Assembly (NCBI GenBank): GCA_035315345.1
Contig: DATFYA010000187.1
Coordinates: forward strand, 3,436 to 67,435
DNA length: 64,000 nt
Origin: Candidatus Methylomirabilota bacterium
GTDB lineage: Bacteria > Methylomirabilota > Methylomirabilia > Rokubacteriales > CSP1-6
Reading direction: 5' to 3'
In this document: piece by piece, positions 5,127 through 39,696 of the stretch
Position numbering within the stretch: the stretch's first letter is position 1
How the letters are laid out: every line of letters starts with the position of its first letter
Notes under the pieces: generated by a model
What the model was told of the DNA's origin: nothing
Seen by the model: the letters and a program-made list of their open reading frames with translations, nothing else
The model's database searches: none
Position numbers and translations under genes: made by a program

Positions 5127-5884
5127 TGGCAAAGACCTTCACGATGCGGGTGTTCCGCGGCGACGCCGCCGGCGGCGACTTCAAGGAGTACACCGTCGAG
5201 GGTGGCGAGGGGATGGTGGTGCTGGACGTGGTCCACCGGATCCAGGCCACCCACGCCCCCGACCTGGCGTGCCGGTGGAACTGCAAGGCGGGCAAGTGCG
5301 GCTCGTGCAGCGCGGAGATCAACGGCAAGCCGCGGCTGATGTGCATGACCCGCATGGACATCTTCGAGGAGAACGAGGTCGTGTCGGTCGCGCCGATGCG
5401 GACGTTCCCGATCATCCGCGACCTGGTGACCGACGTCTCCTACAACTACGAGAAGGCCAAGCAGGTGCCGCCGCTGCGCCTGAAGCCCGCGGATCCGGAC
5501 GGCCGCTACCGGATGATGCAGGAGGACGTGGAGCGCGGCCAGGAATTCCACAAGTGCATCGAGTGCTTCCTGTGCCAGAACGTCTGCCACGTTATCCGCG
5601 ACCACGAAGGCCTCAAGAAGTCCTTCTCGGGCCCGCGTTTCTTCATCAAGATCGCCGGGCTCGAGATGCATCCGATGGACACCCGCGACCGGACCGACTT
5701 CGTGCGCGAGCAGGCCGGGGTCGGGTTCTGCAACATCACCAAGTGCTGCACCGAGGTCTGCCCGGAGCACATCCACATCACCGACAACGGCATCATCCCG
5801 ATGAAGGAGCGGATGGCCGACAACTTCGACCCGGTGGTGTGGGTGCTGCGGAAGATCAGGGGCTCCAAGAAAGCCGCGCCCTGA
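5126..5884 (+). CDS. sdhB: succinate dehydrogenase/fumarate reductase iron-sulfur subunit
   Basis: ATG 5126 (ATGA overlap) within track ORF 3512..5884. CRWNCKAGKCGSCSAEING, CIECFLCQNVC and CNITKCCTEVCP cluster motifs. Confidence 0.9.
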   Translation: MAKTFTMRVFRGDAAGGDFKEYTVEGGEGMVVLDVVHRIQATHAPDLACRWNCKAGKCGSCSAEINGKPRLMCMTRMDIFEENEVVSVAPMRTFPIIRDLVTDVSYNYEKAKQVPPLRLKPADPDGRYRMMQEDVERGQEFHKCIECFLCQNVCHVIRDHEGLKKSFSGPRFFIKIAGLEMHPMDTRDRTDFVREQAGVGFCNITKCCTEVCPEHIHITDNGIIPMKERMADNFDPVVWVLRKIRGSKKAAP

Positions 5885-35883: not shown

Positions 35884-36903
35884 ATGAAGGTCACGTTCCT
35901 GTGCCCGCACCTGCGCGTCGCGGGCGGCGTCCGGGCGATCCTCATCCACGCCGATCGTCTGGCGCAGCGGGGCCACGAGGTCACGCTGGTCGTGCCGGCG
36001 GGGGGTACGCTCACCGCGGGGTGGCGCAATCGCCGCCCGCGGGGGCCCGACTGGATGCCGGACCTGCGGGCCCGGGTGCGATGGGTGCCCGAGTGGAGTC
36101 CCGCGCGCATCCCCGACGGCGACGCGGTCGTGGCCACCGCGTGGCAGTCGGTCGACGCGGTGGCGGCCGCGTCCGATTCGGCGGGCCGCAAGTTCTACTT
36201 CATCCAGCACCTCGAGAGTCTCTATCACGGTGACGCAGAACGGGTGGATGCGACCTATCGGAGCCCGTTGCGGAAGCTCGTGATCTCAACCTGGCTGGCC
36301 GATGCGATGGCCGAGCGCTTCGACTCGCCGGCGGCGGTGATCGTGACCCCGGTGGACCCGACGCTCTTCCACCCGGTCCCGGTGGACGACGATCGCGCGC
36401 TGCGAGTGCTGATGCTGTTCCACGAGTATCCGTGGAAGGGAGTGGCGGAGGGCATCGAGGCCTTTGCGCGGGTGCGCACGCGCCACCCGCGCGCGATGCT
36501 CGTGGGCTTCGGCGTCAAGCGCCCGAAGTCGCCGCTGCCCTTCGCGGAGTTCCACGAGAACCTGCCGCAGGACCGCCTGGCCTGGCTCTACAGCCGATGC
36601 CCGATCTATCTCTGTCCGTCGTGGGACGAGGGGCTGGGCATGCCCTCCATGGAGGCGATGGCGTGCGGGGCGGCCCTCTGCACCTACGACAACGGCGGCT
36701 CCCGCGACTACGCCATCGACGGCCGGACCGCGCTGGTGGCGCCCCGGCGGGATCTGGACGCCCTGACCCGGGGGCTGAGCCGGCTGCTGGAGGATGCGGA
36801 GCTACGACGGCGAGTGGCGCGGGAGGGGCAGGACTTCGTGAGGACTCAGTTCGACTGGGAGCGCGCTACCGCGCGGCTGGAGTCGATCCTGGCCGCGCGG
36901 TAG
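35884..36903 (+). CDS. glycosyltransferase family 4 (GT-B fold)
   Basis: Track ORF. PSWDEGLGMPSMEAMACG E-x7-E region. Confidence 0.8.
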   Translation: MKVTFLCPHLRVAGGVRAILIHADRLAQRGHEVTLVVPAGGTLTAGWRNRRPRGPDWMPDLRARVRWVPEWSPARIPDGDAVVATAWQSVDAVAAASDSAGRKFYFIQHLESLYHGDAERVDATYRSPLRKLVISTWLADAMAERFDSPAAVIVTPVDPTLFHPVPVDDDRALRVLMLFHEYPWKGVAEGIEAFARVRTRHPRAMLVGFGVKRPKSPLPFAEFHENLPQDRLAWLYSRCPIYLCPSWDEGLGMPSMEAMACGAALCTYDNGGSRDYAIDGRTALVAPRRDLDALTRGLSRLLEDAELRRRVAREGQDFVRTQFDWERATARLESILAAR

Positions 36904-36917
36904 CGGGGAGAATCAGG

Positions 36918-37241
36918 CTAGGCGGAGACTCCGACCTGCTCGACGGCGACGTGGGCCATGCCGGCGCGCCGCGGACGCAGCGTGCGGTTGGTCCACCGCG
37001 CGACCACGTGGCCCAGCGTCTGCTCCTCGATCAGGCCTTCCGACTTCAGCTGCTTGAAGACCTGGGTCCAGCCGGAGCTCTGCTGCGCCAGGAAAAGAAT
37101 CTCGTCGAGGCTCTTCCGCGCCGGCACGGCGGGCGTGCTCTGCGCGTCGTACAGGGCGTGCGCGATCTGCGAATCCGAGGGCATCGCGCTCGGCTCGCGT
37201 CGATACCCGGAGCCGACCAGCAACCGGAGCGTCGTCGTCAT
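36918..37241 (-). CDS. hypothetical protein (107 aa), no family recognised
   Basis: ATG 37241 within track ORF 36918..37289, preceded by GGGGAGGAACGAGCC (SD with 7-nt spacing). G/C-rich third positions. The segment KSLDEILFLAQQSSGWTQVFKQLKSEGLIEEQ might be a winged-helix-like region (speculative). Confidence 0.55.
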   Translation of the reverse strand: MTTTLRLLVGSGYRREPSAMPSDSQIAHALYDAQSTPAVPARKSLDEILFLAQQSSGWTQVFKQLKSEGLIEEQTLGHVVARWTNRTLRPRRAGMAHVAVEQVGVSA

Positions 37242-37536
37242 GGCTCGTTCCTCCCCTGTGGCGATTCCGGCGGAACCCGTCTGGCTCATCGGCCGTGGCC
37301 GCGTTGGTGATGCGGGAGGCGATGGGCTCGGGCGAGCTGACCGGGGTACTCGTGCGGGGACTCCAGGGTATGACGCTCCCGGAGCCCTCCTCGGGCACCG
37401 TGAAGTCCCGCGATGCGGTGCCGGTGGTGACCTGCGCCCGACTTCATCTCGCCGGGCCGGCTTCCACCGGGCCTCGCGCCCTTCACGCTGCTGCCGTCCG
37501 CAAAGTCCGCCATGGCTAATGCCGGTCCTTGCTAGG

Positions 37537-37552
37537 GCAAACTCGGTGCCAG
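37537..37552 (-). promoter_or_regulatory. candidate sigma54 (-24/-12) promoter
   Basis: Minus strand reads CTGGCAC-CGAGT-TTGC, matching the TGGCAC-N5-TTGC core with exact spacing. It faces the small ORF at 37513 and the 107-aa gene. Confidence 0.4.
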
Positions 37553-37691
37553 GCGAAGAACGGTTGGAAACGTCTGCGGCTACCGTGACTTACGAAGCAG
37601 CACGTTCCGGGTCGCCCGGAGGCAGGTGACGAGGAACGCCAGACAGTGTACCGATTTAGGACGCCTCCGGGCTCGCCCGCAGGAACTGCGG

Positions 37692-38480
37692 CTAGCGGGG
37701 CAGCCAGTCCCGCAACGGCTTGACGATCGCGCCGGCCTTGACCAGGCCCTCCCGCACCGCCGCGACGATCTTGTCCGAGCCGGGGCTGTCGCCGTGGATG
37801 CAGATCGTCGCGACGTTCGCGTCGATCACCTTGCCGGTGATGGTGCGGACCTTGCCCTCCATGGCCATGCGCACGGCCTGGTCGGCTGCCTTGGCCGGAT
37901 CGGTGATCAGCGCGTCCTTGCCGAGCTTGCGGGTGACCAGCTGGCCGTCGTCGGCATAGACGCGGTCGGCGAAGCCCTCGGCGGCGATGCGCACGCCCGT
38001 CACCTTCCGCGCCTCCGCGTCGTACTTGGTCATGGCCATCGTCATCAGGATGATCTCGGGGTCCAGCTCGAGCACCTGCTCGGCGCTCGCCCGTCCCAAT
38101 GGCAGATTTTCTTCGAACATGTGGTACTGGATGCCGTGCGGCTTCACGTGCTGGATGCGGGTGCCCGCGGCCTGCGCGAAGGCGGCGAGGGCGCCGACCT
38201 GGTAGCGGTGGATGTCCTTCAGCTCGGCGGGGGACACGTCCATGCGGCGCCGTCCGAAGCCCATCAGATCGGGCAACCCCGGGTGCGCCCCCACCGCGAC
38301 GCCGTGCTGGATGGCCAGCTCCACGGTCCGGCGCATGACGTGCGGGTCACCGCCGTGGAAGCCGCAGGCGATGTTGGCCGAGGTGATGTTGGGCATCACC
38401 TCCTCGTCGTGACCGAGGGTCCAGCGGCCGTAGCTCTCTCCCATGTCGCAGTTGATGTCGATGTGGACGGGCTGGCTCAT
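37692..38480 (-). CDS. pxpA: LamB/YcsF family lactam hydrolase (5-oxoprolinase subunit A-like)
   Basis: ATG 38480 (ATGA overlap with the upstream LLM stop) within track ORF 37692..38798. IDINCDMGESYG, NIACGFHGGDP, VKPHG motifs. Confidence 0.88.
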   Translation of the reverse strand: MSQPVHIDINCDMGESYGRWTLGHDEEVMPNITSANIACGFHGGDPHVMRRTVELAIQHGVAVGAHPGLPDLMGFGRRRMDVSPAELKDIHRYQVGALAAFAQAAGTRIQHVKPHGIQYHMFEENLPLGRASAEQVLELDPEIILMTMAMTKYDAEARKVTGVRIAAEGFADRVYADDGQLVTRKLGKDALITDPAKAADQAVRMAMEGKVRTITGKVIDANVATICIHGDSPGSDKIVAAVREGLVKAGAIVKPLRDWLPR

Positions 38481-39465: not shown

Positions 39466-39696
39466 CTCTTCAGCTGCGGGGGCCCCGAAATGGCCCCCGC
39501 ACTCCCCCCGTCGGCGGACAATCGTTCTTGCGCCCATAGGCCCACTTGGCCGTCCGCACTCCTCCCGTCGGCGGACAATCGTTCTTGCGCCCATAGGCCC
39601 ACCGGGCCGTCCGCACTCCTCCCGTCGGCGGACAATCGTTCTTGCGCCCATAGGCCCACCTGGCCGTCCGCACTCCCCCCGTCGGCGGACAATCGT
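39466..39696. repeat. hairpin plus 57-bp tandem repeat array (3.6 copies) in an operon spacer
   Basis: 9-bp GC hairpin GCGGGGGCC-N7-GGCCCCCGC at 39476-39500. Repeat units lie at 39491-39546 (56 nt), 39547-39603, 39604-39660 and 39661-39696 (partial). Units 2 and 3 differ at a single nucleotide. Confidence 0.9.

What the first reader, a model, noticed from the sequence alone, without database searches (positions are those of the whole stretch)
36918..37691. 450-bp unannotated region with near-consensus sigma54 promoter, ambiguous small ORFs and an orphan 107-aa protein
Between pxpA (stop at 37692) and a well-supported orphan gene (36918-37241, strong SD) lies the largest non-annotated stretch in the window.

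**Promoter evidence.** On the minus strand, 37552-37537 reads CTGGCAC-CGAGT-TTGC, a match to the sigma54 TGGCAC-N5-TTGC core with exact spacing. About 130 bp upstream of it, directly after the pxpA stop, is the dyad CCGCAG-N3-CTGCGG (37677-37691). This dyad could be an enhancer-binding-protein site or the pxpA terminator stem.

**Candidate products.** Downstream of the promoter, an ATG at 37513 opens a 75-codon Gly/His/Arg-rich ORF (MADFADGSSVKGARPGGSRPGEMKSGAGHHRHR...). The implied leader is only about 12 nt. Competing ORFs lie on the same strand (GTG 37398) and on the opposite strand (37295-37519), and these also show G/C-rich third positions. The region could therefore encode a sigma54-dependent small protein, an sRNA, or a long structured 5' UTR for the 107-aa gene. 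No enhancer-binding protein is encoded in the window.
Basis: partly seen in the sequence, partly recalled or inferred. Interest (0 to 1): 0.6.

Follow-up and report, generated by a model that had tools for sequence, protein, structure and literature searches.

The report
Sigma-54 promoter driving missed small gene
The unannotated 450 bases hold a conserved sigma-54-type promoter and enhancer that drive an overlooked 75-codon gene and then the 107-residue gene, which is a member of a large uncharacterised family in the uncultured soil phylum Rokubacteria and is not an orphan.

Summary

- **Organism.** The window comes from a Rokubacteria/Methylomirabilota genome.
- **Promoter.** TGGCAC-N5-TTGC (37551-37537, minus strand) lies upstream of every relative of the 107-aa gene with enough upstream DNA, except one locus. 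Across 74 different promoter regions the GG and GC never change, while the 5-base spacer differs between lineages. A short palindrome sits 96-99 bases upstream in most of them, as an enhancer would.
- **Small ORF.** The 75-codon ORF (37513-37286) is a real gene. It is open in 59 of 59 different sequences, all indels are in frame, changes concentrate at third codon positions, and median dN/dS is 0.37. The two competing ORFs fail these tests.
- **Gene junction.** The ORF's stop overlaps an ATG (ATGA) that reads in frame into the 107-aa gene.
- **107-aa protein.** It has over 150 close and about 360 remote relatives, a four-helix core with no known fold match, and no Pfam family.
- **Not established.** No known RNA family or convincing conserved RNA structure was found. 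Whether the phylum has rpoN could not be checked. The function of both proteins is unknown.

The parts
37677..37691 (-). Dyad CCGCAG-N3-CTGCGG, a possible second activator site
   Evidence: Read directly. The core CGCA...TGCG is conserved in all type-A loci (window-type arrangement) at a fixed -139 from the promoter motif, while its distance to the pxpA stop varies from 0 to 45 nt. Arm changes are not compensated. It is absent from type B and C loci.
37642..37663 (-). Conserved block CGTCCnAAAnnGGTACAnTGTC. Its palindrome TACAnTGT(C/A), from 37650, is the likely enhancer (activator-binding site)
   Evidence: Invariant or nearly so in 29 aligned regions. The palindrome [G/T]ACAnTGT[C/A] lies 96-99 nt upstream of TGGCA in type A, type B and one type C lineage. 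The central base varies freely.
37625..37633 (-). Conserved block CTCGTCACC, role unknown
   Evidence: Related CGTC-containing blocks lie at a similar offset in type B and C loci.
37537..37552 (-). Sigma-54-type promoter CTGGCAC-CGAGT-TTGC (GG at 37550-37549, GC at 37538-37537)
   Evidence: There are 11 variants in 74 different promoter regions. GG and GC never change, and the spacer differs between lineages.
37514..37526 (-). Predicted transcription start (about 37526-37524) and short leader without a ribosome-binding site
   Evidence: Inferred from the usual 11-13 nt between the -12 GC and the start of sigma-54 transcripts. The TTGC-to-ATG distance is 22-24 nt in type A and 13-14 nt in type C. 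One- and two-base indels occur only upstream of the ATG.
37286..37513 (-). ORF1: unannotated gene for a 75-aa basic protein rich in Gly, Arg and His, predicted to be disordered
   Evidence: Open in 59 of 59 different sequences and the only frame that is. Variable columns at codon positions 1/2/3 are 23/24/48 of 67. Median dN/dS is 0.37. Indels are 27, 3 and 3 nt. NCBI annotates it in GCA_050731535.1. AlphaFold gives no secondary structure.
37286..37289 (-). ATGA overlap: the ORF1 stop TGA and the ATG of the long (123-aa) form of ORF2
   Evidence: The last ORF1 codon is CGA in 59 of 59 sequences, against 11% of other Arg codons. The frame from this ATG into ORF2 is open in 59 of 59, with spacers of 38, 41 or 44 nt. 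The upstream Ala codon that pairs with this junction is GCT in 50 of 59, against 1.7% elsewhere.
37248..37256 (-). Ribosome-binding site GGGGAGGAA of the 107-aa form of ORF2
   Evidence: Nearly invariant in 29 aligned regions: one sequence, L036, has GGGGAGGCA.
36918..37241 (-). ORF2: 107-aa protein with a four-helix core, a member of a large uncharacterised domain family
   Evidence: 151 close homologue clusters. Alignments. 361 remote homologues. AlphaFold core at residues 22-88 with pLDDT about 85. No fold match. No Pfam or NCBIfam hit.

Best explanation
**What it is.** The gap holds the control region and first gene of a two-gene operon read on the minus strand. It is transcribed by RNA polymerase carrying sigma-54.

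**Proposed mechanism.**
1. The holoenzyme sits in a closed complex on TGGCAC-N5-TTGC (37551-37537).
2. An activator ATPase encoded elsewhere in the genome binds the palindrome TACAnTGT(C/A), about 100 nt upstream. It may also bind the dyad at -139. It then opens the complex in response to an unknown signal.
3. Transcription starts near 37525.
4. ORF1 (75 aa, basic, disordered) is translated from a leader of about 11 nt with no ribosome-binding site.
5. Ribosomes stop at a TGA that overlaps an ATG. That ATG lies in the 3' arm of a hairpin, so translating ORF1 could free it and yield a long form of ORF2.
6. A strong ribosome-binding site 45 nt further on gives the 107-aa form independently.

**Function.** ORF2 is the constant cargo of this promoter across lineages, and ORF1 is one of three lineage-specific arrangements. 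My best guess is an inducible response of the envelope-stress or metal-stress type. That guess is weak.

**Shown and inferred.**
- Shown: motif conservation, the coding nature of ORF1, the ATGA overlap, the synonymous-site constraints, and the family relations.
- Inferred: use of sigma-54, the transcription start, activator binding, translational coupling, and function.
For: **Promoter.**
- The motif is upstream of the ORF2 homologue in 66 of 70 loci within 650 nt, and at -681 in three more.
- There are 74 different regions and 11 versions of the 16-mer. GG and GC are never changed. The spacers seen are CGAGT, CGGGT, TGAGT, CGACT, TGGAC, TGGAT, CGGAC and CTCGA.
- The few substitutions in type A fall at the last base of TGGCAC or in the spacer.
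- The motif does not occur elsewhere in the 1.17 Mb fetched.
- My estimate of the chance rate is about 1e-3 per 700 nt at 70% G+C.

**Enhancer.** The palindrome is at -96 to -99 in all three architectures. The dyad is fixed relative to the promoter and not to pxpA.

**ORF1.** Searches give the coding evidence. NCBI annotation calls ORF1 and ORF2 as separate genes.

**Coupling.** The terminal codon CGA occurs in 59 of 59, against 11% elsewhere. GCT occurs in 50 of 59, against 1.7% elsewhere. The frame stays open in 59 of 59.

**Architectures.**
- Type B: the promoter precedes a DUF3568 lipoprotein gene and then ORF2.
- Type C: the promoter is 13-14 nt from the ORF2 ATG.
- All three share the same convergent glycosyltransferase and TPP-enzyme genes downstream.

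**Indirect support that the phylum uses sigma-54.** Becraft et al. 2017 (PMC5712423) report sensor proteins for nitrogen, zinc/lead and acetoacetate in most Rokubacteria assemblies. From my own knowledge, not stated in that paper, these would correspond to NtrB, ZraS and AtoS, whose partner regulators in model bacteria are sigma-54 activators.
Against: - No rpoN gene and no activator gene was seen in the window or in any fetched locus. I could not verify with the tools that the phylum has rpoN, and literature searches found nothing direct.
- No transcript data are available.
- ORF1 lacks a ribosome-binding site. Its third-position G+C is about 0.70, where neighbouring genes have about 0.9.
- The pairing proposed for translational coupling shows no compensatory changes.
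- A secreted paralogue in a Rokubacteria genome has no clean sigma-54 motif upstream, so sigma-54 control does not extend to the whole domain family.
- The functional guess rests only on analogy and on the export signals of distant relatives. ORF2 itself has no signal peptide.
Confidence: 0.78

Rival explanations
1. The invariant 16-mer is an operator for another DNA-binding protein, or a promoter for a different sigma factor. The genes would then be transcribed from elsewhere, for example by read-through from pxpA or from a sigma-70-type promoter in the conserved block around GGTACACTGT.
For: GGCAC...TTGCC is itself a near-palindrome (GGCA-N7-TGCC), so a dimeric regulator could recognise it (sequence). 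TACACT in the upstream block resembles a -10 hexamer. Presence of rpoN is unverified.
Against: - All ten core positions of the sigma-54 consensus match in every lineage, while the spacer between the two elements changes. An operator would be expected to constrain its own half-sites and would not be expected to track the sigma-54 core.
- The sigma-70 scan found no promoter-like site in 36500-38100.
- pxpA is not the upstream neighbour in type C loci, yet the motif stays.
Confidence: 0.1
2. The gap encodes a structured RNA: a riboswitch, another leader element or an sRNA. The conserved blocks, including the 16-mer, would be parts of that RNA.
For: RNAalifold pairs CCGAGTTTGCC with GGCGGACT..CGG at the start of ORF1. 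One clade has a strong hairpin between two conserved blocks. Synonymous sites in ORF1 codons 2-3 are invariant.
Against: - No Rfam family matches, even at E = 10.
- The consensus fold is weak: -14 kcal/mol, covariation term +0.05, and 0 of 18 pairs with compensatory changes. Two of the three natural changes in the pairing break it.
- The hairpin is not general (mean z = -0.64).
- The blocks keep fixed spacing and conserved sequence, as DNA sites do.
Confidence: 0.04
3. ORF1 is translated, but its product is not a working protein. It would be a regulatory leader peptide whose translation, or stalling at the conserved C-terminal ...ARAHRLPHHQRGxGR, controls translation of ORF2.
For: - The C-terminal 18 residues are nearly invariant while the middle varies and carries indels.
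- The stop overlaps the start of ORF2, inside a hairpin arm held in place by rare codons.
- The protein is predicted to be disordered.
- ORF1 is dispensable in type B and C lineages.
Against: - The N-terminal 12 residues are also conserved.
- 67-77 codons is long for a leader peptide.
- ORF2 has its own strong ribosome-binding site.
- No conserved structure that sequesters that site could be shown.
Confidence: 0.12

Closest known systems
Sigma-54 (RpoN)-dependent promoters with upstream enhancers for AAA+ activators (glnAp2, pspA, zraP type)
   Same: The -24 TGGCAC and -12 TTGC elements have the exact spacing. A conserved palindrome lies about 100 nt upstream at a fixed distance. The promoter sits directly before the regulated genes.
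   Different: No activator gene is adjacent. The enhancer sequence ([G/T]ACAnTGT[C/A]) does not match any activator site I know of. The leaders are very short (about 11 nt, or about 3 nt in type C). The host phylum is uncultured and nothing has been tested experimentally.
zraP-zraSR of enterobacteria (a sigma-54-dependent periplasmic protein of the CpxP/Spy family with Gly/His-rich ends)
   Same: There is a sigma-54 promoter and a small helical protein. Gly/His-rich sequence occurs in ORF1 here and in the tails of the secreted relatives of ORF2. There is a motif reminiscent of LTxxQ (LSPGNQ in relatives, PSDSQ in ORF2).
   Different: - No sequence relation. Pfam PF13801 is hit only once, below threshold (P0133, E = 0.0054), and not by ORF2.
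- No CpxP, Spy or ZraP chain appears among the sequence or fold matches.
- ORF2 has no signal peptide.
- This is an analogy only.
Translationally coupled gene pairs with an ATGA stop/start overlap
   Same: ORF1's TGA overlaps an in-frame ATG of ORF2. Rare codons are held at the junction and at its pairing partner.
   Different: A second start with a strong ribosome-binding site lies 45 nt downstream, so coupling may serve only a longer isoform. Neither isoform has been observed.
Uncharacterised 'LSPGNQKIA...GWGxVFKxMK...NLGQVV' domain proteins of soil metagenomes (no Pfam or NCBIfam entry)
   Same: ORF2 matches this family with a profile: 361 representatives at E <= 0.001. The same helices and motifs are present.
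   Different: Most members have a signal peptide, one to three copies of the domain and a Gly/His-rich tail ending in ...HGGGRGK. ORF2 belongs to a subfamily without a signal peptide, with LRLL near the N-terminus.

Membership tests
Sigma-54-dependent promoter | GG at -24 and GC at -12 within TGGCAC-N5-TTGC, with exact spacing | tested here: met
   There is an exact match at 37551-37537. The same holds in all but one homologous locus with enough upstream DNA.
Sigma-54-dependent promoter | The core dinucleotides are conserved in evolution while the spacer is free to vary | tested here: met
   74 different regions and 11 versions of the 16-mer show eight different spacers. GG and GC are never changed.
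Sigma-54-dependent promoter | An upstream activator-binding site (enhancer), usually 80-150 nt from the promoter | tested here: inconclusive
   A palindrome lies at a fixed -96 to -99 in three architectures, and a dyad lies at -139 in type A. The geometry fits, but binding is not shown and the site matches no known activator.
Sigma-54-dependent promoter | An rpoN gene in the same genome | not testable with these tools
   No RpoN box was found in the window or in about 1 Mb of loci. Whole genomes could not be read. The only evidence is indirect, from PMC5712423.
Sigma-54-dependent promoter | A cognate AAA+ activator with a GAFTGA loop | tested here: not met
   No GAFTGA or activator-type Walker A motif was found in any frame of the window or loci. 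An activator encoded elsewhere in the genome is not excluded.
Sigma-54-dependent promoter | A transcript 5' end 11-13 nt downstream of the -12 GC | not testable with these tools
   No transcript data are available. The predicted start is 37526-37524.
Protein-coding gene (ORF1) | Open frame, in-frame indels and an excess of synonymous change across relatives | tested here: met
   The frame is open in 59 of 59 sequences. Indels are 27, 3 and 3 nt. Variable columns at positions 1/2/3 are 23/24/48. Median dN/dS is 0.37.
CpxP/Spy/ZraP family (Pfam PF13801, LTxxQ) | A match to the family profile, or the fold of long bent helical hairpins | tested here: not met
EF-hand / parvalbumin | A significant profile match and a calcium-binding loop (DxDxDG-type ligands) | tested here: not met
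   The only match is E = 0.011 at 19 bits. The aligned loop reads KSEGLIEE and lacks the acidic ligands. Parvalbumin is absent from the fold matches.
Known RNA families (Rfam 15) | A covariance-model score at or above the gathering threshold | tested here: not met
   No match in the whole window at gathering thresholds. At E <= 10, only three weak chance hits at 9-18 bits appear in 36800-37800.
Uncharacterised LSPGNQ / GWGxVFK / NLGQVV domain family | A profile match over the four-helix core and the conserved motifs I-A-x-A-L-x-x-A-Q, G-W-x-x-V-F-K and (N/T)-L-G-(Q/H)-V-V | tested here: met
   A profile of ORF2 relatives finds 361 representatives, 58 of them at E <= 1e-10. The motifs are visible.

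The most novel reading that the evidence does not exclude
ORF1 and ORF2 form a previously unknown sigma-54-controlled response module of Rokubacteria. In it, translation of a disordered His/Arg-rich peptide gates production of a four-helix protein of a new fold family through a stop/start overlap buried in a hairpin. In sister lineages the same promoter and enhancer instead drive a lipoprotein plus ORF2, or a leaderless ORF2. One regulatory cassette would thus have swapped its first gene.
Probability: 0.2. Interest if true: 0.65.

Novelty: new member of a known kind. Interest (0 to 1): 0.45.

Why it matters
- **First regulatory element for the phylum.** Rokubacteria are abundant in soil, have never been cultured, and have no regulatory element mapped as far as I could find. 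This locus offers a promoter-plus-enhancer pair that can be tested in a reporter assay or searched for in soil metatranscriptomes.
- **A gene that annotation misses.** The 75-codon gene is present as only four protein clusters among 5.8 billion sequences, although the DNA is common in soil metagenomes.
- **An undescribed protein family.** ORF2 links to a large domain family with more than 360 clusters at 50% identity. Many members are secreted and carry Gly/His-rich tails, and the family has no Pfam or NCBIfam entry.
- **Limits.** None of this overturns current understanding. The function of both proteins is still open.

Tried and rejected
**RNA.**
- Rfam on the window and on the region found nothing.
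- RNAalifold on the promoter region gave a weak fold with no covariation.
- RNAalifold on the ORF1-ORF2 junction also gave a weak fold, with one compensatory pair in a 2-bp helix.
- A hairpin between two conserved blocks is strong in one clade only.
- Pairing of CCTCCC in ORF1 with the ORF2 ribosome-binding site is not conserved, because the Leu codon varies.

**Promoter and terminator scans.** The sigma-70 and intrinsic-terminator scans found no sites.

**Strain variation.** Twelve contigs that carry the identical protein have identical DNA across the region, so they were of no use for comparison.

**Rival ORFs.** The plus-strand ORF has the more typical codon-position G+C. It is nevertheless interrupted in 10 of 59 sequences, and substitutions fall on its first codon position.

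**ORF2 function.**
- Pfam, NCBIfam and PADLOC gave nothing.
- PDB sequence searches gave a weak parvalbumin hit. They also gave a pentatricopeptide-repeat hit, which is an artefact of a repeated 13-residue motif.
- The AlphaFold database library was not available.

**ORF1 origin.** ORF1 has no nucleotide or protein similarity to the type B lipoprotein gene.

**rpoN in the phylum.** Eight literature searches and two papers gave only indirect hints.

**Secreted paralogue.** P0283 has no clean sigma-54 motif upstream.

Full report
**What is in the sequence**

- pxpA (a LamB/YcsF family gene) ends at 37692.
- The dyad CCGCAG-TTC-CTGCGG is at 37691-37677.
- CTGGCAC-CGAGT-TTGC is at 37552-37537.
- A 75-codon ORF runs from 37513 to 37286.
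- A 107-aa gene runs from 37241 to 36918 and is preceded by GGGGAGGAA.

Within the window alone the motif is not beyond chance. There is one match against 0.11 expected, and 11 of 100 shuffles have at least one. G+C stays near 0.70 up to about 37520 and falls to 0.62 in 37525-37674. Codon-position G+C was ambiguous between frames.

**Source organism and related sequences**

The nearest named homologues of the 107-aa protein are annotated by NCBI as Methylomirabilota or Candidatus Rokuibacteriota. Contigs that carry the identical protein are identical across the region, so more distant relatives were collected in three ways:
- look-ups of homologous proteins
- a scan of species-representative genomes, which gave 20 loci, mostly Methylomirabilota/Rokubacteria MAGs
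- a metagenome scan with a profile of distant relatives, which gave 80 loci

**The promoter**

In 29 different orthologous regions the 16-mer TGGCACCGAGTTTGCC is unchanged in 26. The other three have TGGCAT (two sequences) or a spacer change (one), while flanking bases vary freely.

In the wider set the motif TGGCA[CT]-N5-TTGC lies upstream of the ORF2 homologue in 66 of 70 loci within 650 nt. It lies at -681 in three more, and was not found in one, L108.

There are 74 different promoter regions and 11 versions of the 16-mer. GG and GC never change. The spacer is CGAGT, CGGGT, TGAGT, CGACT, TGGAC, TGGAT, CGGAC or CTCGA.

The motif occurs nowhere else on either strand in the 1.17 Mb fetched.

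This pattern, fixed core dinucleotides with a free spacer, is what a sigma-54 promoter predicts. It is not what an arbitrary operator or an RNA element predicts.

**The upstream region**

A palindrome [G/T]ACAnTGT[C/A] lies 96-99 nt upstream of the motif in nearly all type A regions, in type B and in one type C lineage. A shortened form lies at -89 in another type C lineage, and there is none in L121. Its central base varies. In the window it is at 37650-37642.

Its arms change without compensation. It is therefore part of the promoter region in type A and is unlikely to be a pxpA terminator.

No consensus RNA structure or covariation was found, and Rfam finds nothing.

**ORF1 is a gene**

- Across 59 different type A sequences the frame is always open, at 67-77 codons. 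The antisense frame is open in 49. The frame of the GTG-37398 ORF carried stop codons in all 29 sequences tested.
- Indels inside the ORF are 27, 3 and 3 nt. Indels of 1-2 nt occur only between the promoter and the ATG.
- Variable alignment columns at codon positions 1, 2 and 3 number 23, 24 and 48 of 67. In the C-terminal half they number 6, 7 and 22 of 29.
- Median pairwise dN/dS is 0.37.
- Only four protein clusters represent ORF1 among 5.8 billion sequences. NCBI annotates it as a 67-aa hypothetical protein next to a 104-aa ORF2 in GCA_050731535.1.
- The protein is basic and rich in Gly, Arg and His. AlphaFold gives no secondary structure (pLDDT 57).

**The leader**

The ATG lies 22-24 nt after TTGC, which implies a leader of about 11 nt with no ribosome-binding site. 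In type C loci the ORF2 ATG is 13-14 nt after TTGC, which makes the transcript nearly leaderless. Initiation on short leaders is therefore plausible in these organisms.

**The junction between ORF1 and ORF2**

- ORF1 ends CGA-TGA in 59 of 59 sequences. CGA makes up 11% of the other Arg codons in ORF1.
- The ATG created by this overlap reads in frame into ORF2 without a stop in 59 of 59 sequences. The spacer lengths of 38, 41 and 44 nt keep the frame.
- Thirteen codons upstream, the Ala codon is GCT in 50 of 59 sequences, against 1.7% of other Ala codons. GCTCATCG is complementary to CGATGAGC.
- This suggests a hairpin whose 3' arm carries the stop/start overlap, and translational coupling for a long ORF2 isoform.
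- No compensatory change supports the pairing, so this step is an inference.
- The ribosome-binding site GGGGAGGAA before the 107-aa start is nearly invariant; one sequence has GGGGAGGCA.

**ORF2**

- It has 151 close homologue clusters, with 69-98% identity among the best 120 listed.
- The conserved core reads LRLL-GSGYRRE-MPSDSQIAHAL-DAQ ... DEIL ... GWTQVFKQLK-EGLIEEQTLGHVVARWTNR.
- AlphaFold gives four helices over residues 22-88 at pLDDT about 85, with disordered ends.
- A profile search of 1.84 billion representatives finds 361 relatives.
- Most relatives have a signal peptide, one to three copies of the domain and a Gly/His-rich tail. A subfamily without a signal peptide is closest to ORF2.
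- None has a significant Pfam or NCBIfam match.
- Two of the secreted forms are named by NCBI as Rokubacteria or Methylomirabilota proteins. One examined locus has no clean sigma-54 motif.

**Three architectures**

All three are followed by the same convergent glycosyltransferase and TPP-enzyme genes.
- Type A: promoter, ORF1, ORF2 (the window).
- Type B: promoter, a DUF3568 lipoprotein gene, ORF2.
- Type C: promoter directly before ORF2.

ORF1 shows no similarity to the type B gene. The constant parts are the promoter, the palindrome and ORF2.

**What remains open**

- No rpoN or activator gene was seen in any DNA fetched, and whole genomes could not be searched.
- The literature gave only an indirect hint. 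Becraft et al. 2017 report sensor proteins for nitrogen, zinc/lead and acetoacetate in most Rokubacteria assemblies. From my own knowledge, these would correspond to NtrB, ZraS and AtoS, which in model bacteria pair with sigma-54 activators.
- From memory, NCBI annotates sigma-54 factors and sigma-54-dependent regulators in Rokubacteria MAGs. This was not tested here.
- The function of ORF1 and ORF2 is unknown. The analogy with zraP is only an analogy, because the membership tests failed.

**Verdict**

The sigma-54 and small-protein readings are supported by comparative evidence. The sRNA/UTR reading and the 'orphan' label are not. The locus is a new member of a known kind of regulatory system, and it carries two uncharacterised proteins. 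Interest is moderate.

Noticed in passing
window 39497-39696: A 57-bp tandem repeat (3.5 copies, 96% identical) lies in the gap between the CoA-transferase and luciferase-like genes. Copy number differs among strains that are identical across the region studied here: 3 core copies in the window, 2 in L003/L004/L005, and 1 in L001/L002/L006/L012. More distant relatives have none.
   Followed up: partly
P0130-P0274; L127 10001-10408: There is a large undescribed family of secreted proteins. Each has a signal peptide, one to three copies of the ORF2-like domain, and a Gly/His-rich tail ending ...HGGGRGK. There is no Pfam or NCBIfam entry. One Rokubacteria member lies next to a Phenol_MetA_deg outer-membrane protein gene.
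   Followed up: partly
L110 3364-4306; L116 3366-4264; L112 1253-2155: In sister lineages the same promoter and palindrome drive a DUF3568 lipoprotein gene where ORF1 sits in the window. In others (L120, L121, L123, L126) they drive ORF2 directly, with the ATG 13-14 nt after TTGC, which makes the transcript nearly leaderless.
   Followed up: yes
L127-L130, minus strand near 5261-5267 (5169 in L129): TGGCAC-TCCCT-CTGCA lies about 60 nt upstream of a conserved 99-aa gene with no Pfam hit in a Rokubacteria MAG. It may be a second sigma-54-type promoter.
   Followed up: no
whole window: Allowing one mismatch, TGGCAC-N5-TTGC still has only the one match, against 3.3 expected from shuffles. This is a mild and non-significant shortage of near-consensus sites.
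   Followed up: no
P0122 and P0208: Two database proteins that contain parts of ORF1 look like artefacts. P0122 joins an N-terminus resembling RNase J (my reading of the sequence, not tested) to the ORF1 C-terminus on a 678-nt contig. P0208 starts as ORF1 and runs on into downstream sequence, probably through a frameshift.
   Followed up: no
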